DNA from: Escherichia coli
Lineage (GTDB): Bacteria; Pseudomonadota; Gammaproteobacteria; Enterobacterales; Enterobacteriaceae
DNA length: 64,000 nt
Strand: one strand, 5' to 3'
Assembly (NCBI RefSeq): GCF_044324785.1
Contig: NZ_CP172127.1
The position numbers were made by a program, and so were the translations under genes. The notes under the pieces were generated by a model that saw only the letters and a list, made by a program, of their open reading frames with translations, was not told the DNA's origin and did no database searches. Positions 32,247 through 42,651 of this stretch are shown piece after piece (position 1 is the stretch's first letter; each line of letters begins with the position of its first letter).

Positions 32247-35200
32247 ATGAAATCAATATTGTATTATTTAGAGCCACGTACAGAATTAAATGACAAATTA
32301 TTTCGCTATGCAACACTACGCTCTTATCTACTACCTGAAATTGATGGCCTTAGGATAGCTGATAAGAGCCTCGATTTTAAAATGATCGTTTCTCGTACGA
32401 TTTATAATAAAGCAAAACAAAATAATTTAAAAATGGAGGGTATCGATTTTATAATTATTGATGAAGATGTATTTGAAAAGAACTCATATCTGAAGAATAT
32501 TAATGTTAGTAATGAATTATATCATGGGAATTTAAATATAAAGGCTAATGAAGAACTAAAATCAATCATATCTGCTTGCCTTCCTGTTGATTATAAACCA
32601 GATATTATTATTTCATATGAAAGCCCAGCTCCATTTTTTAAAGAGATATTTCCATCATCTTTACTTTTAAACGCTATGTTTGGAATTTTTTCAAGGGCAC
32701 CATTTCCTGCATATGGGTTATTAGACCCATGTGGTTTGTATGAATATTCATATCAATATAAATATGCTGATAAAATTCGTGCTGAGGAGATTTCAGAAGA
32801 AGAAAAGGAAGTTATAAAATTACTCAGAAGACAAAGTTCAAGAGCACTTGCTGCTTATCATCCTCTCAAGAAATATATTTCATCATTATATGAAAAATAT
32901 GATCGACTTGTTGTATTAGCATGTCAAGTGGATAACTATTTTTCTTATAATAGTTGTACCAATTATCCATCACAATATGCGATGGTGGAAGATGTTCTTT
33001 CTCAAGTTCCATCAAATATTGGTGTTATAGTTACAGAACATGGCTATAAAAGACAAATAAGTGACGAGCAAATTGAGTCTTTAAATGAAAAATACAGTAA
33101 TTTTATATATTTTTCTAAAAAAGATGTATTCACACCAAGTCAATTTATTCTTCCTTATGTAGATGGTGCTTTATCAGTCTCGTCATCGATTGGTTATCAG
33201 GCTGCTTTATGGCAGATTCCATATTTTGGTCTTGGAAAATCACAAGTCGATGTACTCTGTTCAAATACATCATTAATGAGCTTCGTTAATGATGTTGAAA
33301 AAGGCATAAAGATTGATCGTGATAATATTCTTTATGTTTTACTTTCAAAAGTTCACTTATCACATAAAAATGATTTGTTTAATGGAAAATCTTATCTAAA
33401 TAAGTTGAAGGATTTATTTAATAAGTTTACCTCTAATTGCGACGAATATGAGTATTTTAACACTAAAAAAAGTATTGATGAAGTTCGAAAAGATATCATC
33501 TGTGGCAACAGAGAATGGTTACTTAAAAAAAACTTTATTGACTCAAAATTAGTTCCTGAAGTAGACCATTTACGTGTTGCAATGTCGCATTCAAAAGCGA
33601 TCTCTTATGATCTTTTTGATACTCTTGTTGAACGTGATTTTGTTGAACCTCATGAATTATTTAATCTAATTGAATCCCGTGTACGTAATGAGTTAAACAA
33701 TAAAAACTTCCCTTTCTATTATGTAAGACGACAAGCCGAAATTGACTTGCGCAGAGAGACAAGAGGTGAGTTTGAAATTACTCTCGATGAAATTTACGAA
33801 AGATTTCCAAGATACTTTGATCTTACTTTAGAACAACTAGAGAAGATAAAAAATATAGAAATAGATGCTGAAGTCGAACTCGTTCATCCGAAAAAAGAAA
33901 TGGTTCGTGAATTTTATTTTTCTCAAATGATTTGTGAAAGTGTATCTATCATTACAGATATTTATCTTTCTCAGAATGTTATTGAGCGTATTTTACAAAA
34001 AGTAAAAATTAGTGGTTACAATAAATTATTGGTTTCAGCAGAAACTAAAACAAGAAAACATAACGGAACTATTTATCCTGAATATTTGAAATATATAAGA
34101 GATAATTTTGATATTAATGCAGGACAGGCTCTTCATGTCGGTGATAATAAACAAGCTGATGGTGATATGGCTAAAAAACATGGCATAAAAACATATGTAT
34201 TTCAAAAAGCGATTGATAATTACAAAAAATCTTTAATTGCTGATATTTTACGTTCCAGTATTAATCATCCAGGTATTTCGAGTTCTGTTATTAATGGTTT
34301 GTTTGCTAACAAATATCACGCAGGACACTGGTTTAAAATTAACAAGGAATCAATTTTTAATGCTGACGAATATAATTATGGCTATATGGCAATAGGGCCT
34401 CTTGTTGTTGGCTTTACTCAGTGGTTGTATCGGCGGGTTAATAAATTAGGTATCAAAAAATTATATTTCTTATCCCGCGATGGATGGATTCTTAAAAAAA
34501 CATTCGATTATTTTTATCCTGAATCATCATCTGGCATCAAGACCGAATACCTGTACAGCTCTCGTCGAACTGCAATGGTAGCATCGTTAAGAAATATTGA
34601 TGATATTATTGAAGTTGCCTCTCAAAACTTCAATGCTAGAAAGCTAAGTGACTTTTTATCTACTCGTTTTGGGCTGGATGTGGATACTGTTAAAAAATCT
34701 GTTCTTGAAAAATATAATTACAAGCATGACACTATTGTTTCTCCTTATTTTGAATTTGGAAAGCTGATTGGTTTTTTAAAAGATATTCATCATACAATAT
34801 TGTCTAATGCAAAAAATGAACGTGAAAGCTATATCGATTATTTACGAGAAACTGGATTTGAAAATGATTGCTTAAATGGCGGTGCTACTGTTGTTGATAT
34901 TGGTTACAGTGGTTCCATGCAATATTATTTAAAAAAAATACTGCAATGCCCTTGTGTGAACGGATTTTATTTTTTAACACATCACCATAGTCGTGATTAT
35001 TTTTCAAATGATCATTTTGAAGGTTTCTTGCAAAATCTTGATGATCATAAGATCGCTTATAGACATGGATTAAATGATCATGTGTTTATTTTTGAAGCAG
35101 CATTAAGTTCCCCTGAAGGAAGTCTGATTAAAATGGAAGGGAAAGGTCAAGAAAGAGAAATGATTTTTCTCGAGGCAGAAGAAGAGATTGTAAGAAAAAA

Positions 35201-35756
35201 TGCTCTATTAGGAACACATCGTGGCGTAATGGACTTTGTTCATGATATCAAAACTCGTTTTGGTTCTTACTTTAAATACATTGAATTTTCTCCTATTCTT
35301 TCTTCTCAACTTATTTTGAATTTTGCGAATAATCCCAACGGTATAGATGCAGGGATGTTTGCTTCTCATGAAGTCGAAAATGTTTTTGGTGGGGGGTCTG
35401 TATGCTTAATTTCGCCTTTACTAGATTGCTATAAGGACTCTAATGGCACCATTAACCCTAAAATTATCGATGAGTTATTAAAAGCATCTAAATGGAAGAG
35501 AGGTGCCAGTGCTTATTATAACTTAGTCAATGGAACTCAACCGCGAGTTAATCCTGCTAAAATGCCAGCGCCATCTGTTAACCCAGTTGTTGTGAAGCAA
35601 ACGCCACAAACTACTTATGCACATCCTTTAAAGACAACTACGCAGCGTAAACTTGCTAAGTTAAAAAAAGACCCATATTTATTCTTTAATGATTCCCAAA
35701 AACCTCTTTTAAAAAGTTTACGATTGTTCTTCAAAAATACATCAAAGCTTAATTAA
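32247..35756 (+). CDS. Putative multidomain capsule polymerase of kps region 2 (KpsC/KpsS-like glycosyltransferase domain + HAD-like phosphatase domain + uncharacterised C-terminal domain)
   Basis: 1169-aa ORF with AAAAGGAG Shine-Dalgarno; strongly AT-rich. The N-terminal part carries SVSSSIGYQAALWQIPYFGLGKS, resembling the TS..GFEALL...P.YAGWG motifs of KpsC and INSTAGISAL of KpsS in this window. Central HAD motifs DLFDTLV (33609-33629) and GDNKQADGD (about 34140-34166). Basic C-terminal tail. Confidence 0.6.
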   Translation: MKSILYYLEPRTELNDKLFRYATLRSYLLPEIDGLRIADKSLDFKMIVSRTIYNKAKQNNLKMEGIDFIIIDEDVFEKNSYLKNINVSNELYHGNLNIKANEELKSIISACLPVDYKPDIIISYESPAPFFKEIFPSSLLLNAMFGIFSRAPFPAYGLLDPCGLYEYSYQYKYADKIRAEEISEEEKEVIKLLRRQSSRALAAYHPLKKYISSLYEKYDRLVVLACQVDNYFSYNSCTNYPSQYAMVEDVLSQVPSNIGVIVTEHGYKRQISDEQIESLNEKYSNFIYFSKKDVFTPSQFILPYVDGALSVSSSIGYQAALWQIPYFGLGKSQVDVLCSNTSLMSFVNDVEKGIKIDRDNILYVLLSKVHLSHKNDLFNGKSYLNKLKDLFNKFTSNCDEYEYFNTKKSIDEVRKDIICGNREWLLKKNFIDSKLVPEVDHLRVAMSHSKAISYDLFDTLVERDFVEPHELFNLIESRVRNELNNKNFPFYYVRRQAEIDLRRETRGEFEITLDEIYERFPRYFDLTLEQLEKIKNIEIDAEVELVHPKKEMVREFYFSQMICESVSIITDIYLSQNVIERILQKVKISGYNKLLVSAETKTRKHNGTIYPEYLKYIRDNFDINAGQALHVGDNKQADGDMAKKHGIKTYVFQKAIDNYKKSLIADILRSSINHPGISSSVINGLFANKYHAGHWFKINKESIFNADEYNYGYMAIGPLVVGFTQWLYRRVNKLGIKKLYFLSRDGWILKKTFDYFYPESSSGIKTEYLYSSRRTAMVASLRNIDDIIEVASQNFNARKLSDFLSTRFGLDVDTVKKSVLEKYNYKHDTIVSPYFEFGKLIGFLKDIHHTILSNAKNERESYIDYLRETGFENDCLNGGATVVDIGYSGSMQYYLKKILQCPCVNGFYFLTHHHSRDYFSNDHFEGFLQNLDDHKIAYRHGLNDHVFIFEAALSSPEGSLIKMEGKGQEREMIFLEAEEEIVRKNALLGTHRGVMDFVHDIKTRFGSYFKYIEFSPILSSQLILNFANNPNGIDAGMFASHEVENVFGGGSVCLISPLLDCYKDSNGTINPKIIDELLKASKWKRGASAYYNLVNGTQPRVNPAKMPAPSVNPVVVKQTPQTTYAHPLKTTTQRKLAKLKKDPYLFFNDSQKPLLKSLRLFFKNTSKLN

Positions 35757-35764
35757 TATAATGT

Positions 35765-35794
35765 GAGTCGCACTATGGTGTGACTCTTTTTTAT
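35765..35794 (+). terminator. Putative intrinsic terminator between the two region 2 genes
   Basis: Hairpin agtcgcac-tatg-gtgtgact followed by a T6 run directly after the polymerase stop codon. Confidence 0.5.
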
Positions 35795-35874
35795 ATGTCA
35801 GTGATAGTTATTAATGAAATATTTAATGCGCGAAGGTGTACGATTTTTACAATATTTAGAGACTGGTGGGTCAA

Positions 35875-36885
35875 ATGAGTATTTCTTTGAAAAATATTGA
35901 TTTTGCTAAAGGTCCTGTTGATTCCCTCCATCATGATTATTACTTATGGCGAGGGAAGAACATTGAGGATAAAAGACTTTTTCTCGTTTTCTCATCTCGG
36001 GGAGCAGGTCCTGGAGAATTTAGTTTTTTCAAAACTTTTGATGCGCTTAATGTAAATGTTTTGCATGTTACACCCTCTGATTTTTCATGGTACCAAAAAG
36101 GGTTAGTCGGTTTAGGGAGTGATTTGCCTTCTGCATTTAAAGCCCTATCTGACCGAATAGATAATTTCTGTATTTATCATAAAATAAAACAAATTATCTG
36201 TGTAGGGGCTTCCATGGGAGGATATGGTGCTTTAATTTATGGGGCTTTATCTAGTAGAAAAATAAAAACAACACTTATTCTTTTTGGCACCGAAACAATA
36301 TTAAAACTTCCTTATTCTAAAAGTTCTGAGAGTGAATTTGATATTCTCAAAAAATTTAAAGATGTAAGGTTTCTAGATTATTCTGATCTTGATGTGAATA
36401 TGATATTTGGTGAGTTTGATATTGTAGATACTTATTGTGCTTTATCGATGCGACATGATCGAAATTTTTCATTTTTTTCATGCACTAGCGCCTCACATGT
36501 TGTTCCGGAATACTTAAATAGACAAATTGGAATTGTTAATTTTTTTACAGACTTCTTATCGGGTGGAAGATCTTTTATTGGAAGAGGCCACATTGCTTCT
36601 GAGCTTTATCCTGAGGATATTTCTCCTCTTCTGTTCTCGAAACAATTTACTGAGGAATACAATAATGCCCTCCTCTGTTGCTTGAAAAAATATCCTTCAT
36701 TTGGGTTTGCATGGAATAGATTAGGCGTATATTTACACAATATAGGAGATCTGGCTGGGTCTTTAGCAGCATTAAAAAGAGCATTTTTCATCAACCCTGA
36801 TTATCCAAATACAATTGAGCATCTTAACTCGGTAAGAAATAAACTAAAAACTTTTAGTTTTTATGTATACTTGTGTGAGGAATGA
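35875..36885 (+). CDS. Alpha/beta-hydrolase-fold protein of kps region 2, candidate capsule-modifying enzyme (possibly O-acetyltransferase or esterase)
   Basis: ATG 35875 (MSISLKNIDF...) 7 nt after GGTGGG; nucleophile-elbow motif GASMGG near 36201-36221; low GC like the polymerase gene. Confidence 0.5.
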   Translation: MSISLKNIDFAKGPVDSLHHDYYLWRGKNIEDKRLFLVFSSRGAGPGEFSFFKTFDALNVNVLHVTPSDFSWYQKGLVGLGSDLPSAFKALSDRIDNFCIYHKIKQIICVGASMGGYGALIYGALSSRKIKTTLILFGTETILKLPYSKSSESEFDILKKFKDVRFLDYSDLDVNMIFGEFDIVDTYCALSMRHDRNFSFFSCTSASHVVPEYLNRQIGIVNFFTDFLSGGRSFIGRGHIASELYPEDISPLLFSKQFTEEYNNALLCCLKKYPSFGFAWNRLGVYLHNIGDLAGSLAALKRAFFINPDYPNTIEHLNSVRNKLKTFSFYVYLCEE

Positions 36886-36934
36886 ATAGCAATATATCTC
36901 AATATCTAAGAGCTGGTTTTTATATCGTTCATAG

Positions 36935-38143
36935 TTATAATTTTTTTACTTTTATTTGTTTTCTTACTCTATCCCCATAATAAACCCCATTAACCTGCGT
37001 CTTCACCAATAAATACCCCCGAAACTTCTTAAACAGTTTCATATCCGGTTTAAAATCGGCCTGCCAGAACTGGTGCAAATGCCCTTGATACGTCAAGCCT
37101 TTGATGTCGTACAGGGCATTGCCCATCACTTTGAGTGGTTTGTTGTGAATCAGCGCAGATATCCCCGCCGTACTGTTAATTGTCACCACCGCTTTTGCGT
37201 GGCGTAACAATTCCGGCATCGGGAGATCGTGCACATAAATGACTCGTTCCCCTAAGCCATATTCCTTACTCAACCGCTTAATTAATGGTCGATAGAGTCT
37301 GTGACCACGATCCATTGGATGGTGCTTGATCACCAAATAACTTTCTTTCGGTGCTTTACGTGAAAATGAGTACATGACTTCATTAATATAGTCACGCACA
37401 TCGTTATAATTGCTGTGGTTACGAATCTGGCTATCGTTATACACCTGCAAAACGGCAAGATAATAACGCTGATCCAGCTCATTCATTAACCTCGGCAATA
37501 CCTTACGCTGTGTTACCTTGTAAAGTTGCTTGCGCCAGTATGCACGAACCCAGCAACGTGCTTCATACCAGGGGGAAAACGATTTATGGTGGCGGTAGCG
37601 AGGGAACTCATGGCGGTAATGCCAGCCCATCAGGTAATACCACATCGCATGACCTATACGTTTCATCGTTGAAGGTTTTAAGTTCTCAACGTGCGGCGCA
37701 GGCATATCTGGTAACTTACGATAAAAATCCGGATCGCGCGGTAGCGATGAATATGCGTTTACTCCGCCTTCTTCAACGGTTATAAATTGCGGGCGTAAAT
37801 ATCCTTCTTCAAATGCCAGAAAGCGGAGCCCTTTCGACTTTGCCCAGCGTTTTGCTTCTTTATGCAATGGGCGACAGTCACCAAAACAGAGGATGGTATC
37901 AAAGTCATATTGCCGGTGGAGATCCCGTAACCATCCGGGGAACTCTTTCGGCGTTTGGTAGTAGGCCAGGTATTGTCGATGGCGGCAGTAAAAACGATCC
38001 CCACCGTTGAATACAACATTCACAGCGTTACGTCCTAATGACTCTAACCATTCGGCGACGTCATTGAAAAAAGGTCCCATCGGCCCCTGCAATAGCAGAT
38101 ATTTTTTACCGGATAATAAAACGGTTAGTGCATTACCTTGCAT
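36935..38143 (-). CDS. kpsS: Capsule biosynthesis protein KpsS (Kdo transferase for the glycolipid anchor)
   Basis: 402-aa ORF with INSTAGISALIHNKP motif; convergent with region 2, first region 1 gene encountered from the right. Confidence 0.9.
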   Translation of the reverse strand: MQGNALTVLLSGKKYLLLQGPMGPFFNDVAEWLESLGRNAVNVVFNGGDRFYCRHRQYLAYYQTPKEFPGWLRDLHRQYDFDTILCFGDCRPLHKEAKRWAKSKGLRFLAFEEGYLRPQFITVEEGGVNAYSSLPRDPDFYRKLPDMPAPHVENLKPSTMKRIGHAMWYYLMGWHYRHEFPRYRHHKSFSPWYEARCWVRAYWRKQLYKVTQRKVLPRLMNELDQRYYLAVLQVYNDSQIRNHSNYNDVRDYINEVMYSFSRKAPKESYLVIKHHPMDRGHRLYRPLIKRLSKEYGLGERVIYVHDLPMPELLRHAKAVVTINSTAGISALIHNKPLKVMGNALYDIKGLTYQGHLHQFWQADFKPDMKLFKKFRGYLLVKTQVNGVYYGDRVRKQIKVKKL

Positions 38144-38177
38144 AAATAATTTGCGTAATAGTCAACTATGAAATTGT

Positions 38178-40205
38178 TTAGCCAAATCTGACCTTGCAGA
38201 ACATAATTAATTTGCGGTAATAGCGTATTACCCGTCCCGCTTTTTTTCGGGTAATAAACATCGGCTTACGCGGCGTCTGGATTAAATATTCCGCAGCTTC
38301 CTCAACCGTAATAGGCTGTAGCCGTGTTGGGTGAATATATGTTGGGTAAACAATCAACGCCTGATAGATCAAGTCTGCTATCGTTAATTTTTGCTCGCGG
38401 CGCGGGCAATGATGTTCATCAACGGTTAAACCCCAACCGGCATAGAAGGGCAGGCCGTAACAATGAACTTGCTTGCCATGTAATAACGCTTCAAACCCGG
38501 ACAATGATGTCATGGTGTGCACTTCATCTGCGCGCTGAATGCATTGAATAATATCGGCGCCCAGTGCCTGATAATCAGCGAGTTCAGCAGTCAGTTCTGC
38601 CGGAATATCGCCCTTGCGATTCCCCACCAGTACATCCGGGTGCGGTTTATAAACAATGTAGGCGTGCGGATTGCGCTCGCGTACTGTGCGTAATAACTCA
38701 AGGTTGCTCTTAATCGAGACAGTGCCTGTTTTAATGGAGGCATCGTCCTCTACCTGACCCGGCACCAGGATAACTTTTTTATCTTTGGCTTCGGCTGGTA
38801 GAGAGAAATCGGCTCCCAGGTTGTACTTACTCAGTTTGCTTTCAACCAGTCGCTGGCGTAATTTTTCAGCTCGCATCTTCTGCGCCAGCGTTAGCTGGCT
38901 ATGATTCAGCAGCACTTCCAGATCGCTGGGGCGTGTGGCGTCATAGTAAATACCGCGTTTATCCAGCACCAGCGATAGCGGCGGCAGCAGGTCAGAGCCA
39001 AGTCCGGATGAACGCAGAAAACCATCTTCCATTCGCCATAACGGCAGTGATTTTCGCTGCGCTTCGGCTCGCCATTGCTGTTCTCCCTTTACACCCCATA
39101 CCACGCAGGCGCTCGCCGCAGTACAGCGACGTGAAAAACTCAGCCGGTTTGTTGCCGTTTGCAAGAAAGGTTTCAGGATCGCTGACTTCCACAGCGTTAA
39201 GCCTGGCGCCCATAAATAACCATCACGCTGTTGCAGATGTCGACGTTGTAATTGCAGCCATTGCAGCACGGTAAATAGATCGCTTACTTCTCCCGTTTGC
39301 GGATCGATATAGCGACAGTAACGCAGGTATGCAGCGGCAAAAAGTTCCTCCAGCGTGGCAGAACCGCGTCGGGCAGATAACAAAGCGGACTGTGGATGAC
39401 GATCGTCGGTTAAACCCCAACCTGCATACCAAGGCTGGCCGAAACATGTTACTGGTTTTCCTGCCAGCAAGGCTTCAAAGCCGTACTGGGAGGTCACGAC
39501 GTAAACCTGGGAAACGTGTCGCAATAGCGACTGCGGGCTGACATTCTCGGCAATCAAACGTACTCGTTGCGTGGCACGCAGATCAGCGAAATAACCTGTT
39601 TTCTTTCCTTCCAGTACATCTGGGTGCACCTTCACCCAAATTTCGGCTTGAGGATTTTCCGCCATCGCGGCTTCCAGCATGGCAGCAAACTCATGCGGGC
39701 CAGCATTGCCATACGTCACTGACATATCATTAAATGTCTGATCGACAACCAGAACGATGTCTGCACGTTCTGACTCATCAGCCACAAACGCAGGTGCCAG
39801 GTTATATTTCGACAAATCTCCGGTCACGATGGTGTGCATCGCTTCTCTGGCCTGGCTTATCAGAGCTGTATTTCCGGCTTTATCCTGTACCAGTTTCTCC
39901 AGTGCTGAAGGCTTGCTGGCATCGTAGTAAATGCCACAATCATCCACCACCAGAGAAAGCGGCGGCTCGCCATTGACGCCAAGATCCAGCGAACGCACAA
40001 ATCCATCTTCCAGACGAATGACGGGTTTTCCCGCTGCTTTGGCGATGGCGACTGGTTTCGCCGCGCTGGGACGATGTCCCCACACGGCGATAGCATCAAC
40101 TTCTTGCGGAACAGGGCGCAGCAGAGAAAGTTTCTGGCACGGTTGCGCCAGAAATTTCTCCAGATGCGGAATACGCCAGATGCCAGGCGAGTAAATGCCA
40201 ATCAT
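38178..40205 (-). CDS. kpsC: Capsule biosynthesis protein KpsC (tandem-domain beta-Kdo transferase)
   Basis: 675 aa with an internally duplicated motif HPDVL...TS..GFEALL.GK.V.C.G.P.YAGWGLT in both halves. Confidence 0.92.
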
Positions 40206-40942
40206 GCGTTTTCAGCCAGTTCCTGTGCCATCAGGGCGCGCACTTTTTCCAGGCATGCTGGGGTGTCGACGCCCGGACCGGTTGCGGCAACCTCAAATGT
40301 GCGGATGTTGATCCCTGCGCTCATCAACCGCAGCTGCTCCAGTGATTCTGCCTGCTCTGGCATGGACTCCGGTAACTGACTGTAGTTTTGCAGCACATCG
40401 CGACGATAAGCGTAAATACCAACGTGTTTCAGGTAGCGCGCTTTTTCAGCATTACGCGGATAGGGAATCGGCGAACGGCTGAAATAAAGCGCATCCTGGC
40501 GGGTATTTACCACCACTTTTACCGTGCTTGGCTCGGTCGCTTCTTCGGCAGAAATCGCGTGGCATAGCGTTGCCACTGGCAACGCGGGATCATCACGCAT
40601 TCCTTGTAACAGCGTTTCTACATCCCGCGGGCGAATCATTGGTTCATCGCCCTGCAGGTTAATGTAGATATCTGCCTCGACTTTATGCATCACCTCGACC
40701 AGCCGATCGGTGCCGGATTCATGATCGTTGCGCGTCATGATGGCTTTCCCGCCAAACGCCTGCACGGCCTTTTCAACACGCGGGTCGTCTGTTGCCACCC
40801 AAACTTCCGCAACGCCCGCCACCTGTAACGCACGCTCGTAAACATGCTGGATCATCGGTTTACCAACAATATCGAGCAGTGGCTTACCCGGCAGGCGCGA
40901 GGAGCCATAGCGAGCCGGAATGACAATAACTGCTTTGCTCAT
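40202..40942 (-). CDS. kpsU: CMP-Kdo synthetase (3-deoxy-manno-octulosonate cytidylyltransferase), capsule-specific copy
   Basis: 246 aa, [23 protein letters not shown]-terminus typical of KdsB/KpsU; overlaps kpsC by 4 bp. Confidence 0.92.
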
Positions 40943-40951
40943 TTCAACTCC

Positions 40952-42631
40952 TTACAAAGACAGAATCACTTTTGCACCCACCGCCAACTGGTAAAGGATG
41001 GTGGAAATACCGCGAGTAACTTCAATGTTTTTCGATTCATATTTCGGCAGAACCATAATCTCATCGCCCGGTTTGAGTGAATCCACATCTTCTGCGTTGA
41101 CGGCTGCACCGTTCTGACGAATGACGATAATTCTGGCGTTACCCGATTTCTGCGTCAGGCCACCACATTTCTCGATGTAATCCTCGGTGGTCATACCCTT
41201 CTGCCAGCTCACCGCGTTCGGGAACAGCACTTCGCCATGAACCATAACCAGCGATGTTTTCTCCGGAATATTGATGACGTCGCCATCTTCAAGCAGAACA
41301 GAATCAATATTGGATTCGTTGAGGATCACTTCACCTTTCGGAACAACGGTGCGTGCTTTCGCCACAAAGCGGCTGATCAGTTGTGCTTCCTGCATTCGCA
41401 GGCTGGCTTCTTCTTTGGTGGATGACTGGGCAGAAAGTGATGCTTCCTCCAGCTTTTGCAGCGAGAGATTCAGCATCTCTTTCTGACGCTGAGCCACTGA
41501 TGGGCGATAAAGCTGAACTGCGTTCATCTGCGACATGCTGTTCGGGCGGACTTTTTCCAGAACCGCACGCATAGTGGAACCATAAGGCAGTACCATGGCA
41601 TGTTCACCGGAGTGTGCGCCTTCAACCCGCACCTGAATGGTGCCGGCATAGCGGTCAGTGCTCACGATTAAGGTATCGCCATTTTGCAACATACGGCCTG
41701 GCGCAGAACTGATCGGATAGTATTCGCTGCGTTTTTGCAGCCCCTGTTTACGCATAATCGTAATGTGAGTCGCGCCAGGCTTAGGGCGCGCCCAGCTCAA
41801 CGCTTCCGTTACGGGAATGCTGCTTTCGCGGAACTCAAAGTCGTAGCTGTTAAAGACATCGCCCTGAACGCTGAAAGTATGCTGACGCGGCCCGACGATG
41901 ATGGTGTCACCATCGGCGAACTGCGAAAGCCCCAGTTTGCCGTTCAGCAGGAAGTCGTACAGGTTGACGTTGGAGCGCACGCGGTTACCGCGCTTGACCA
42001 CAATATCAACGTAACTTCCGCGCTCTGGATCAACGCCGCCAGCCTTGATCAGATAATTGAGTAACGAATCAGACGTCACACCGCCATACAGACCAGGATT
42101 ACGCACAAATCCGGTCACGTACACTTTTACTGGCTGCGCCTGTAATAAGGAGGCGTAGACGTTGACGTTGGACTGGTATACTTCCTTCACTTTGGATGTG
42201 ACCAGGGCATTTAGCTGACTATTACTGACGCCAGCAACTTTCACCGGACCAACGTTCGGCAGGAAAATATTACCTTTGGGATCAACCTGTAACGCACCAT
42301 CAAAGGTGAACGCACCCCACAAGCGAACCTGAATGCTATCACCCGGATTCAGAATATAGTCAGGGTTGAATCCTACCGTCGCACCGCTATCTGCGCTGGT
42401 GCCGTTGAAAAGTTGAGCACCAAACATACGGCTCATTACCACCGGCGGTGCGGGCGGCGGGGTATTGTCGAAGCCGCTCATGTTTTGCGTATCCGACTGT
42501 TGCCCGTTCAGAATACCGGTAAGCGGCGCGGCTCCTGTAAGGTTTGGGTCGGCGTTAATATCAATGGCCGCGCTGGCCTGCGCCGCGTGACAGGCGGCAA
42601 TCAGTAAAATTGATTTAAATAATTTCATCAC
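40952..42631 (-). CDS. kpsD: Capsule outer-membrane export protein KpsD (OPX family)
   Basis: 559 aa with signal peptide (MMKLFKSILLIAACHAAQASA); polysaccharide export family. Confidence 0.92.
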   Translation of the reverse strand: MMKLFKSILLIAACHAAQASAAIDINADPNLTGAAPLTGILNGQQSDTQNMSGFDNTPPPAPPVVMSRMFGAQLFNGTSADSGATVGFNPDYILNPGDSIQVRLWGAFTFDGALQVDPKGNIFLPNVGPVKVAGVSNSQLNALVTSKVKEVYQSNVNVYASLLQAQPVKVYVTGFVRNPGLYGGVTSDSLLNYLIKAGGVDPERGSYVDIVVKRGNRVRSNVNLYDFLLNGKLGLSQFADGDTIIVGPRQHTFSVQGDVFNSYDFEFRESSIPVTEALSWARPKPGATHITIMRKQGLQKRSEYYPISSAPGRMLQNGDTLIVSTDRYAGTIQVRVEGAHSGEHAMVLPYGSTMRAVLEKVRPNSMSQMNAVQLYRPSVAQRQKEMLNLSLQKLEEASLSAQSSTKEEASLRMQEAQLISRFVAKARTVVPKGEVILNESNIDSVLLEDGDVINIPEKTSLVMVHGEVLFPNAVSWQKGMTTEDYIEKCGGLTQKSGNARIIVIRQNGAAVNAEDVDSLKPGDEIMVLPKYESKNIEVTRGISTILYQLAVGAKVILSL

Positions 42632-42651
42632 AAACTCATTCAGCGACAGCG

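What the first reader, a model, noticed from the sequence alone, without database searches (positions are those of the whole stretch)
33600..34210. HAD-type phosphatase signature embedded inside the capsule polymerase
Motif I DLFDTLV (33609-33629) and motif IV GDNKQADGD (about 34140-34166) are about 180 residues apart, the spacing expected for a HAD core with a small cap. A phosphatase domain fused to a polymerase implies a phosphorylated sugar is transferred and then dephosphorylated during chain elongation, which is an unusual polymerisation chemistry.
Basis: seen in the sequence. Interest (0 to 1): 0.55.

Follow-up and report, generated by a model that had tools for sequence, protein, structure and literature searches.

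The report
Ribose-phosphate phosphatase domain in capsule polymerase

Summary
DLFDTLV (33609-33629) and GDNKQADGD (34140-34166) are residues 455-461 and 632-640 of a 1169-aa ORF (32247-35756, +). This ORF lies in serotype-specific region 2 of an E. coli group 2 kps capsule locus.

All four HAD motifs are present and invariant or nearly so in 49 homologues (24-75% identity):
- motif I: D455
- motif II: T570/D571
- motif III: K604
- motif IV: D633/D638

The segment matches the CrpP phosphatase plus CriT PRPP-ribosyltransferase of H. influenzae Bcs3 (phmmer 4e-28, profile 2e-58, Foldseek 2e-23). It also matches the T. composti ribofuranosyltransferase 7SHG.

The N-terminal 445 residues adopt a WbbB/KrkA/KpsC-like Kdo-transferase fold. 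The protein is therefore a Kdo-transferase / phosphatase / phosphoribosyltransferase polymerase, like the characterised K13 enzyme KrkA.

By gene lengths and domain coordinates it matches K107_10 of the published kTYPr catalogue. RefSeq calls it "hypothetical protein".

One side lead: this family's Kdo-transferase-like domain lacks the Asp nucleophile of retaining enzymes (Tyr231 instead). It may therefore make alpha-Kdo.

The parts
32247..35756 (+). Capsule polymerase ORF, 1169 aa. It is 1165/1169 identical to RefSeq WP_134355222.1 ('hypothetical protein') and matches K107_10 of the kTYPr catalogue in length and HAD coordinates.
   Evidence: PMC13171606 supplement
32247..33581 (+). N-terminal Kdo-transferase-like GT-B domain (aa 1-445). 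It has Q227, H265, S312-S313 and Y124-E125, but Tyr231 sits where retaining Kdo transferases have the Asp nucleophile.
   Evidence: AF2 pLDDT 95; Foldseek WbbB GT99 E 1.5e-11, KrkA 3e-7, KpsC 5e-7; hhalign to the window's KpsS/KpsC
33597..34229 (+). HAD-type phosphatase domain (aa 451-661): a five-stranded Rossmannoid core plus a C1 cap. Predicted to be a polymer-end ribose-5-phosphate phosphatase, the CrpP equivalent.
   Evidence: published InterPro rows for K107_10, HAD 450-655/661
33609..33629 (+). HAD motif I, DLFDTLV. D455 is the nucleophile (49/49 conserved, equivalent to Bcs3 D386). F457 replaces the usual second Asp. D458 and T459 are invariant.
33636..33926 (+). Alpha-helical C1 cap of the HAD domain (about aa 464-560).
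   Evidence: secondary structure of the model; Gene3D 1.10.150.400 at 462-542 in the published table
33954..33959 (+). HAD motif II, T570-D571, at the end of beta-2. Position 570 is T in 25 and S in 23 of 49 sequences. D571 is 49/49.
34056..34058 (+). HAD motif III, K604 (49/49). It aligns with Bcs3 K548.
34140..34166 (+). HAD motif IV, GDNKQADGD. G632, D633 and D638 are invariant and N634 is 48/49. D640 is not conserved.
34230..35501 (+). PRPP-dependent phosphoribosyl (ribofuranose-5-P) transferase domain, CriT-like (about aa 662-1085). S743-R744-D745 (34473-34481) correspond to Bcs3 S678-R679-D680. S772-R773 correspond to S707-R708. D884-x-G and E950 are invariant.
35502..35753 (+). C-terminal tail (aa 1086-1169): a Pro-rich linker, then a conserved basic motif RKxxKLxxxPYxFFxDSKxP and a basic/hydrophobic end. 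Probably a membrane- or machinery-association element, like the C-terminal helices of Bcs3 and KrkA.
   Evidence: consensus; tails; the literature analogy is an inference
35896..36885 (+). Second region-2 gene, 329 aa (WP_000028051.1). It has an alpha/beta-hydrolase-like N-terminal half with a GASMGG motif and C-terminal TPR repeats. It matches K107_9. Function unknown; it may modify the polymer.
30570..30577 (+). ops-like element GGCGGTAG, 33 bp upstream of the RefSeq kpsM start (window 30610). It sits at the position expected for RfaH-dependent read-through into region 2.
   Evidence: The position is right, but the count in the window is not statistically significant on its own.
30610..32060 (+). 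kpsM and kpsT (region 3 ABC transporter), transcribed in the same direction as the polymerase gene.
36935..44891 (-). Region 1 and shared genes kpsS, kpsC, kpsU, kpsD, kpsE and kpsF. KpsU and KpsF supply CMP-Kdo. KpsS and KpsC build the poly-Kdo linker.
   Evidence: the equivalent annotated locus

Best explanation
Residues about 451-661 of the 1169-aa region-2 protein form an active HAD-family phosphatase. This domain is the second half of a two-step 'add one ribofuranose' cassette.

Proposed mechanism:
1. The adjacent C-terminal domain (about aa 662-1085, CriT-like) uses PRPP to transfer beta-ribofuranose-5-phosphate onto the non-reducing end of the growing capsule chain.
2. The HAD domain removes the 5-phosphate. 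D455 attacks the phosphate to form an aspartyl-phosphate. T570 and K604 bind the phosphate. D633 and D638 hold Mg2+.
3. The N-terminal Kdo-transferase-like domain (aa 1-445) adds Kdo from CMP-Kdo, giving a Kdo/Ribf repeat.

The chain is assembled on the KpsS/KpsC poly-Kdo linker and exported by KpsMT/KpsED.

What is shown here: the motifs and their conservation, the folds, the homology and the locus context. What is inferred from characterised homologues: the substrates, the order of steps and the polymer composition.
For: Sequence and conservation:
- The only solved relative by single-sequence search is Bcs3. Query 424-786 aligns with Bcs3 355-723, covering CrpP and the start of CriT, at E 4e-28.
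- The family profile gives Bcs3 at 2e-58, the dual-domain ribofuranosyltransferase 7SHG at 8e-52 over profile positions 442-1049, then classical HAD phosphatases at 5e-7 to 1e-3.
- D455, F457, D458, T459, D571, K604, G632, D633 and D638 are invariant in 49 full-length homologues. Position 570 is T/S in 48 of 49. With 10 shorter homologues lacking the Kdo-transferase-like domain added (56 sequences, down to 20% identity), the nucleophile D455, D458 and D638 stay invariant, and D571, K604 and D633 are at least 90% conserved.
- PRPP-site residues map directly: S743/R744/D745 and S772/R773 correspond to Bcs3 S678/R679/D680 and S707/R708.

Structure:
- The AF2 model of aa 440-1090 has pLDDT 92.9 and pTM 0.91, with beta-strands ending at D455, T570 and G632.
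- Foldseek on that model gives Bcs3 at 1.8e-23, 7SHG at 1e-22, and HAD hydrolases at TM about 0.6-0.67.
- The N-domain model has pLDDT 95, with WbbB, KrkA and KpsC as best matches.

Context and precedent:
- The gene lies between kpsMT and kpsS in a complete group 2 locus that encodes KpsU and KpsF for CMP-Kdo but no other sugar-nucleotide genes.
- Bcs3 D386A was reported as (partially) inactive in polymer assembly.
- KrkA, with the same three-module layout, adds Kdo and dephosphorylated ribose from CMP-Kdo and PRPP.
- The kTYPr paper places K107 in the Kdo/Ribf set of large three-domain ORFs.
Against: - No biochemical or structural data exist for this protein or for the K107 polysaccharide, so the presence of Ribf and Kdo is predicted, not observed.
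- Pfam alone gives only insignificant HAD hits (E 0.12-0.58), and NCBIfam hits are far below their cut-offs.
- The canonical general acid/base Asp at D+2 is missing (Phe457). Catalysis must therefore differ in detail from textbook HAD phosphatases, as in CrpP.
- The equivalents of Bcs3 E818 and E874 could not be aligned by sequence. D884 and E950 are only candidates.
Confidence: 0.88

Rival explanations
1. The HAD domain is a catalytically dead scaffold that only holds the other two domains together.
For: Pfam and NCBIfam scores are weak. The D+2 Asp of the DxD motif is replaced by Phe.
Against: The nucleophile Asp, the motif III Lys and both motif IV Asp residues are invariant across 49 homologues down to 24% identity, and the motif II Ser/Thr is kept in 48 of 49. 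In the 56-sequence set that reaches 20% identity, the nucleophile and D638 remain invariant, and K604 and D633 are at least 90% conserved. The same Phe is present in Bcs3 CrpP, where mutating D386 impaired polymer assembly.
Confidence: 0.03
2. The HAD domain dephosphorylates a soluble precursor, for example Kdo-8-phosphate in the manner of KdsC, rather than the polymer end.
For: The locus needs CMP-Kdo, and Kdo synthesis includes a HAD phosphatase step (general pathway knowledge).
Against: Its closest relatives by sequence and by fold are CrpP and 7SHG, not KdsC-type enzymes. In every homologue recovered it is immediately followed by the PRPP-transferase domain, including proteins that lack the Kdo-transferase-like domain or carry other GT families instead. 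It also has a large C1 cap.
Confidence: 0.04
3. The phosphate is partly retained or re-used, either as a polymer containing ribose-5-phosphate or phosphodiester links, or with the HAD domain acting as a phosphotransferase or mutase.
For: Loss of the D+2 general acid is seen in some HAD members with altered chemistry (general knowledge). The K107 structure is unknown.
Against: The homologous modules in Bcs3 and KrkA yield dephosphorylated ribose. No TagF-like or stealth phosphotransferase is encoded in region 2.
Confidence: 0.03
4. The two motif strings are a chance resemblance within a non-HAD region.
For: Short motifs can arise by chance in AT-rich coding sequence.
Against: The pair was found in 0 of 100 shuffles. 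Bcs3 matches at E 4e-28 and 2e-58. The model gives a confident HAD fold.
Confidence: 0.005

Closest known systems
Bcs3 of Haemophilus influenzae type b: CrpP (HAD phosphatase, 374-591) plus CriT (PRPP ribose-5-P transferase, 592-1036); PDB 8A0C/8A0M
   Same: The HAD domain is immediately followed by the PRPP-transferase domain. The nucleophile Asp sits in an FDxFDTL motif with Phe at D+2. The motif III Lys (K548 = K604), GDNKxADG, and the SRD and SR PRPP-site residues are shared. Both have a C-terminal tail proposed to mediate membrane association, and both work in an ABC-transporter capsule system.
   Different: The third activity in Bcs3 is a TagF-like ribitol-phosphate transferase at the N-terminus, and Bcs3 has an SH3b domain. 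Here the partner is a Kdo-transferase-like GT-B domain, and no SH3b domain was identified. Structural-alignment identity is only about 18-20%.
KrkA, the E. coli K13/K20/K23 capsule polymerase (GT140 Kdo transferase + HAD + PRPP transferase; PDB 9YFX-9YFZ)
   Same: The three-module order and approximate size are the same (1113 vs 1169 aa). Both sit in region 2 of an E. coli group 2 kps locus, have a C-terminal membrane-associating tail, and make or are predicted to make a Kdo/Ribf polymer.
   Different: The N-domains are not detectably related by sequence. No PDB sequence hit was found even with the profile. Foldseek gives E 3e-7 at 12% identity. KrkA has the QxxxD nucleophile (D193), where this protein has Tyr231. 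The companion gene is a VatD/OatA-type acetyltransferase in K13 but an alpha/beta-hydrolase-TPR protein here.
Dual-domain polysaccharide ribofuranosyltransferase of Thermobacillus composti (PDB 7SHG) and its O-antigen relatives
   Same: The whole HAD plus PRPP-transferase cassette aligns: profile positions 442-1049 against chain residues 26-632 at E 8e-52, and Foldseek 1e-22.
   Different: It is a stand-alone two-domain enzyme with no fused polymerising partner.
WbbB GT99 retaining beta-Kdo transferase domain (PDB 5FA1, 8CSB and others)
   Same: It is the best structural match of the N-terminal domain (E 1.5e-11, TM 0.55-0.64).
   Different: Identity is 11%. The Asp nucleophile position is Tyr here.
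K107 capsule type of the kTYPr catalogue (Nat Microbiol 2026)
   Same: K107_10 is 1169 aa with HAD at 450-655/661. K107_9 is 329 aa with an alpha/beta-hydrolase domain plus TPR. The lineage is G2A and the locus is about 14.3 kb. All of this matches the window.
   Different: The match rests on lengths and domain coordinates. The reference sequence itself (NZ_JAYMNE010000021.1) was not available for comparison.

Membership tests
HAD superfamily phosphohydrolase | Motif I: nucleophile Asp at the end of beta-strand 1 | tested here: met
   D455 is 49/49 conserved. The model strand spans 451-455. It aligns with Bcs3 D386.
HAD superfamily phosphohydrolase | Motif I: second Asp at D+2 (general acid/base of phosphatases, 'DxD') | tested here: not met
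   Position 457 is an invariant Phe. An invariant Asp sits at D+3 (D458). Bcs3 CrpP shows the same deviation.
HAD superfamily phosphohydrolase | Motif II: Ser/Thr at the end of beta-strand 2 | tested here: met
   T570 is T in 25 and S in 23 of 49 sequences. The model strand spans 565-570.
HAD superfamily phosphohydrolase | Motif III: conserved Lys | tested here: met
   K604 is 49/49 conserved and aligns with Bcs3 K548.
HAD superfamily phosphohydrolase | Motif IV: acidic residues (GDxxxD) after beta-strand 4 | tested here: met
   G632, D633 and D638 are 49/49 conserved. The model strand spans 628-632.
HAD superfamily phosphohydrolase | Rossmannoid fold with flap and cap insertion | tested here: met
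   The AF2 model has pLDDT 93. Foldseek finds HAD hydrolases (2OM6, 1X42, 3VAY and others) at TM 0.6-0.67.
HAD superfamily phosphohydrolase | Mg2+-dependent phosphomonoesterase activity | not testable with these tools
   Requires an enzyme assay.
PRPP-dependent polysaccharide ribofuranosyltransferase/phosphatase cassette (CrpP-CriT type) | HAD domain contiguous with a CriT-like PRPP-transferase domain | tested here: met
   Bcs3 and 7SHG align across both domains. The model pTM of 0.91 indicates a fixed two-domain unit.
PRPP-dependent polysaccharide ribofuranosyltransferase/phosphatase cassette (CrpP-CriT type) | PRPP-site residues S678/R679/D680 and S707/R708 of Bcs3 | tested here: met
   The equivalents are S743 (S28/A21), R744 (49/49), D745 (48/49), S772 (49/49) and R773 (49/49).
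PRPP-dependent polysaccharide ribofuranosyltransferase/phosphatase cassette (CrpP-CriT type) | Second ribose-binding acid (Bcs3 E818) and proposed base (E874) | tested here: inconclusive
   The sequence alignment to Bcs3 stops at residue 808, and a search with the C-terminal part found nothing. The invariant D884-I-G-x-S-G-S loop and E950 are plausible counterparts only.
PRPP-dependent polysaccharide ribofuranosyltransferase/phosphatase cassette (CrpP-CriT type) | Use of PRPP as donor; Ribf in the product | not testable with these tools
   The K107 polysaccharide structure is unknown.
Retaining beta-Kdo transferases (GT99 / GT107 / GT140) | Dual-Rossmann GT-B-like fold resembling WbbB, KpsC or KrkA | tested here: met
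   Foldseek gives WbbB at 1.5e-11, KrkA at 3e-7 and KpsC at 5e-7.
Retaining beta-Kdo transferases (GT99 / GT107 / GT140) | QxxxD motif with the Asp that forms the covalent Kdo adduct | tested here: not met
   Q227 aligns with the motif's Gln, but the Asp position is Y231 (Y41/Q5/H3 of 49). D229, at Q+2, is Asp in 33 of 49.
Retaining beta-Kdo transferases (GT99 / GT107 / GT140) | (K/R)xHP CMP-phosphate-binding motif | tested here: inconclusive
   The sequence T263-E-H265-G aligns with K-H-H-P of KpsS. The His is kept in 30 of 49 and the Pro is absent.
E. coli group 2 capsule locus, kTYPr type K107 | Regions 1 and 3 (kpsFEDUCS, kpsMT) flank two K-specific genes of 329 and 1169 aa with the published domain coordinates | tested here: met
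   The reference sequence itself was not compared.

The most novel reading that the evidence does not exclude
The N-terminal Kdo-transferase-like domain of this polymerase family (window 32247-33581) has the fold of retaining beta-Kdo transferases but lacks their covalent-adduct Asp. Tyr231 occupies that position, and no Asp is found there in any of 49 homologues. It may therefore be an inverting enzyme that makes alpha-linked Kdo.

The homologous N-domain in EAEC 042, which belongs to the K74/K109/K95 group, also lacks the motif. [quoted passage not shown]

Two alternatives remain open. Tyr231 could act as a sialidase-style nucleophile, or D229 could be a shifted nucleophile.
Probability: 0.3. 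Interest if true: 0.55.

Novelty: already known. Interest (0 to 1): 0.18.

Why it matters
The result gives a firm functional annotation to a protein that RefSeq labels "hypothetical". It is a three-activity capsule polymerase, predicted to build a Kdo/ribofuranose polymer from CMP-Kdo and PRPP.

The locus occurs in 21 of 5,426 complete E. coli genomes, including O25b:H4-ST131 bloodstream isolates. The annotation is therefore useful for in silico K-typing and for choosing phage depolymerase or glycoconjugate targets.

It does not reveal new chemistry. The transfer-then-dephosphorylate route to ribofuranose was established for O-antigen enzymes (7SHG), Bcs3 and KrkA, and this ORF's HAD domain is already listed in a published catalogue.

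The only potentially new point is the missing nucleophile in the Kdo-transferase-like domain. It could explain how alpha-Kdo capsules are made.

Tried and rejected
- Pfam-A on the full protein gave only sub-threshold HAD hits (E 0.12 and 0.58) and nothing for the other two domains.
- NCBIfam gave weak HAD-IA hits far below cut-off.
- PHROGs gave nothing. On their own, these libraries would have left the finding unresolved.
- phmmer of the C-terminal part of the CriT-like domain (aa 840-1080) against the PDB found nothing, so the Bcs3 E818 and E874 equivalents stay unassigned.
- I tried to recover other E. coli K-type polymerases (K16_8, K74_8) by a profile search and by cluster look-up. No named E. 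coli hits other than the query's own cluster came back.
- The kTYPr supplement is truncated before the K74 rows, so the length of K74_8 could not be checked. EAEC 042 was used instead and can only be assigned to the K74/K109/K95 group.
- I considered whether this protein belongs to the KrkA paper's 'E_coli_O25b' cluster (41% identical to KrkA) and rejected it. The N-domain shows about 12% structural-alignment identity to KrkA and no sequence hit.
- The promoter and terminator scans were at background level.
- The second preprint version of the kTYPr paper has no supplements held.
Full report
**Where the finding sits.** The window carries a complete E. coli-type group 2 capsule (kps) locus next to the gsp type II secretion genes. 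It contains kpsM and kpsT (30610-32060, +), then two AT-rich serotype-specific genes (32247-35756 and 35896-36885, +), and then kpsS, kpsC, kpsU, kpsD, kpsE and kpsF on the minus strand. Region 2 has 30-35% G+C against 45-58% in the flanks. The finding lies inside the 1169-aa ORF at 32247-35756.

**Checking the observation.** The coordinates are exact. DLFDTLV is residues 455-461 (33609-33629), and GDNKQADGD is residues 632-640 (34140-34166), 177 residues downstream. A regular-expression pair for these two motifs within one open frame occurs once in the six-frame translation of the 64-kb window and in none of 100 block-wise shuffles.

Motif II is T570-D571 at the end of the second core strand. 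Motif III is K604.

In an alignment of 49 full-length homologues at 24-75% identity, D455, F457, D458, T459, D571, K604, G632, D633 and D638 are invariant, and position 570 is Thr or Ser in 48 of 49. With 10 shorter homologues lacking the Kdo-transferase-like domain added (56 sequences, down to 20% identity), D455, D458 and D638 remain invariant, and D571, K604 and D633 are at least 90% conserved.

Motif I is not a literal DxD, because the D+2 residue is an invariant Phe with an invariant Asp at D+3. The cap is an all-helical C1 insert of about 100 residues rather than a small one.

**What the domain is.** General-purpose libraries barely see it. Pfam HAD families score E 0.12-0.58, and NCBIfam HAD-IA models score about 2e-4, far below their cut-offs.

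Against solved structures, however, the only single-sequence hit is Bcs3, the capsule polymerase of Haemophilus influenzae type b (E 4e-28, query 424-786 against Bcs3 355-723). With the family profile, the results are as follows:
- Bcs3 at 1.8e-58.
- The dual-domain ribofuranosyltransferase of Thermobacillus composti (7SHG) at 7.9e-52, covering profile positions 442-1049.
- Classical HAD phosphatases after that.

According to the Bcs3 structure paper (PMC10299916), residues 374-591 are CrpP. This is a HAD phosphatase whose nucleophile is D386 and whose motif III lysine is K548, and only the first Asp of DxD is conserved. Residues 592-1036 are CriT, which transfers ribofuranose-5-phosphate from PRPP. 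CrpP then removes the 5-phosphate from the non-reducing end, and the D386A construct was reported among the (partially) inactive mutants.

In my alignments D386 corresponds to D455, K548 to K604, and the GDNKHADG loop to GDNKQADG. The CriT PRPP-site residues S678/R679/D680 and S707/R708 correspond to S743/R744/D745 and S772/R773.

An AlphaFold2 model of residues 440-1090 is confident (pLDDT 92.9, pTM 0.91). Its best structural matches are Bcs3 (E 1.8e-23) and 7SHG (1e-22), and the HAD part alone superposes on many HAD hydrolases at TM about 0.6-0.67.

**The rest of the protein.** The N-terminal 445 residues model at pLDDT 95. They match the retaining beta-Kdo transferase domain of WbbB (GT99; E 1.5e-11, TM 0.55-0.64), then KrkA (GT140) and KpsC (GT107), all at 11-14% identity. 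Several homologues carry precomputed PF05159 (KpsC/KpsS family) hits.

The last 84 residues or so are a Pro-rich linker followed by a conserved basic motif, RKxxKLxxxPYxFFxDSKxP. The position of this tail parallels the membrane-associating C-terminal helices described for Bcs3 and KrkA. Its function here is an inference.

The overall layout is therefore Kdo-transferase-like / HAD phosphatase / PRPP-ribosyltransferase / tail. That is the layout of KrkA, the E. coli K13 polymerase shown in vitro to add Kdo and dephosphorylated ribose from CMP-Kdo and PRPP (PMC12887879).

**Which capsule type.** Region 2 is found at 99.4% identity or more in 21 of 5,426 complete E. coli genomes, several of them O25b:H4-ST131. 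Both genes are annotated "hypothetical protein", and the window protein is 1165/1169 identical to WP_134355222.1.

The supplementary tables of the kTYPr paper (PMC13171606) list K107_10 as 1169 aa, with HAD-like domains at 450-655/661 and a cap domain at 462-542. They list K107_9 as 329 aa, with an alpha/beta-hydrolase domain at 21-144 and TPR at 241-329. These match the window's genes. K107 is one of the catalogue's previously unnamed types, with no serology or polysaccharide structure.

[quoted passage not shown] The reference sequence itself was not available to me, so the assignment rests on lengths and domain coordinates.

**Most likely mechanism.**
- Shown here: an intact HAD catalytic constellation; its fixed fusion to a CriT-like PRPP-transferase domain; a Kdo-transferase-like third domain; and a locus that supplies CMP-Kdo (KpsF, KpsU) but encodes no other sugar-nucleotide pathway.
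- Inferred from characterised homologues: the CriT-like domain adds beta-Ribf-5-phosphate from PRPP to the chain end. The HAD domain hydrolyses the 5-phosphate through an aspartyl-phosphate on D455. The N-domain adds Kdo. The Kdo/Ribf polymer grows on the KpsS/KpsC poly-Kdo linker and is exported by KpsMT/KpsED.

I put this at about 0.88. The rivals are a dead scaffold, a soluble-precursor phosphatase such as a KdsC-like enzyme, retention or re-use of the phosphate, and chance. Each is disfavoured by the invariance of the catalytic residues, by the domain's constant pairing with CriT even in proteins that lack the Kdo-transferase-like domain or carry other GT families, and by the chemistry of Bcs3 and KrkA.

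**Comparison with what is known, and novelty.** I therefore rate the finding as already known. Its practical value is a firm annotation for a "hypothetical protein" in a clinically relevant lineage.

**A side observation worth recording.** Retaining Kdo transferases of GT99, GT107 and GT140 share a QxxxD motif whose Asp forms the covalent Kdo adduct, as well as an HP motif. Profile comparisons of this family's N-domain with the window's own KpsS and KpsC modules align Q227 with the motif's Gln and H265 with the motif's His. The best comparison has 83% probability and E 9e-6. The Asp position, however, is Tyr231. Across the 49 homologues it is Tyr in 41, Gln in 5 and His in 3, and never Asp. 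An Asp or Glu at Q+2 (D229) is conserved only in the closer half of the family.

I also located the kps locus of EAEC 042. Its 1112-aa region-2 ORF is 25% identical to the window protein, the same figure published for K107_10 against K74_8. Because K74, K109 and K95 share related genes, I can place 042 only in that group. The 042 N-domain is clearly homologous to this family (hhalign 99% probability, E 7.5e-20), and it has neither the Gln nor the Asp.

[quoted passage not shown] One reading that my evidence does not exclude is that this clade of GT99-like domains is inverting. I put that at about 0.3, because D229 or Tyr231 could still act as a nucleophile and the motif alignments are of moderate confidence.

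**Other context.** An ops-like GGCGGTAG lies 33 bp upstream of the RefSeq kpsM start, which is the expected place for RfaH-dependent read-through into region 2. A hairpin followed by a T-run lies directly after the polymerase stop codon.

Noticed in passing
window 32925-32939 (Q227-Y231); family alignment A1: The Kdo-transferase-like N-domain has Q-V-D-N-Y where retaining Kdo transferases have QxxxD. The Asp-nucleophile position is Tyr, Gln or His in all 49 homologues. This may indicate an inverting (alpha-Kdo) enzyme or an alternative nucleophile.
   Followed up: partly
window 35896-36885 (+): The second region-2 gene (329 aa) combines an alpha/beta-hydrolase-like half, with a GASMGG serine motif, and C-terminal TPR repeats. 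It has no significant family match (Pfam E 2.5e-3; only TPR hits in the PDB). It may be a polymer-modifying enzyme such as an O-acetyltransferase or esterase. It is 25% identical to K16_7 according to the kTYPr tables.
   Followed up: partly
window 35646-35708 (aa 1134-1154) and the tail to 35753: A conserved C-terminal motif, RKxxKLxxxPYxFFxDSKxP, follows a Pro-rich linker and is present across the family. From memory, it resembles a motif near the N-terminus of the polysialyltransferase NeuS. It may be a shared docking or membrane element of group 2 capsule polymerases. This was not tested.
   Followed up: no
window 30570-30577 (+): An ops-like GGCGGTAG sits 33 bp upstream of the RefSeq kpsM start codon (30610). 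The mechanical ORF list starts kpsM at a TTG at 30550, which would overlap this element and is probably not the real start.
   Followed up: partly
window 35765-35796 (+): A terminator-like hairpin (9-bp stem, 5 G-C pairs) with a T-run lies immediately after the polymerase stop codon and before the 329-aa gene. The scan as a whole was at background level.
   Followed up: no
window 29800-37000: Region 2 and the kpsM upstream gap have 30-35% G+C, against 45-58% for the gsp genes and kps region 1. This is consistent with horizontal acquisition of the serotype-specific cassette. The closest full-length homologues (58-75% identity) are mostly unnamed metagenome or assembly proteins. The named ones include Yersinia intermedia (60%) and, at 46-48%, Aeromonas, Pluralibacter and Cupriavidus.
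   Followed up: partly
L003 (E. coli 042, NC_017626.1 3450959-3457051): Region 2 of EAEC 042 holds a WcbI-family putative acetyltransferase, a 1112-aa three-domain polymerase annotated 'hypothetical protein', and an extra 231-aa cytidylyltransferase-domain protein in addition to KpsU.
   Followed up: partly
homologues P0055, P0059, P0091, P0093, P0096: In other taxa, including Campylobacter lari and Methylorubrum, the HAD plus PRPP-transferase cassette is fused to GT2, GT4 and other glycosyltransferase domains. It therefore behaves as a portable ribofuranose-adding module.
   Followed up: no
window 46167-48311 (-): Downstream of kpsF lie genes typical of a CP4-like or pheV-type island, judged by comparison with the equivalent annotated 042 region (DUF4942, CbtA/CbeA-like toxin-antitoxin genes and others). 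This fits the usual island context of kps loci.
   Followed up: no
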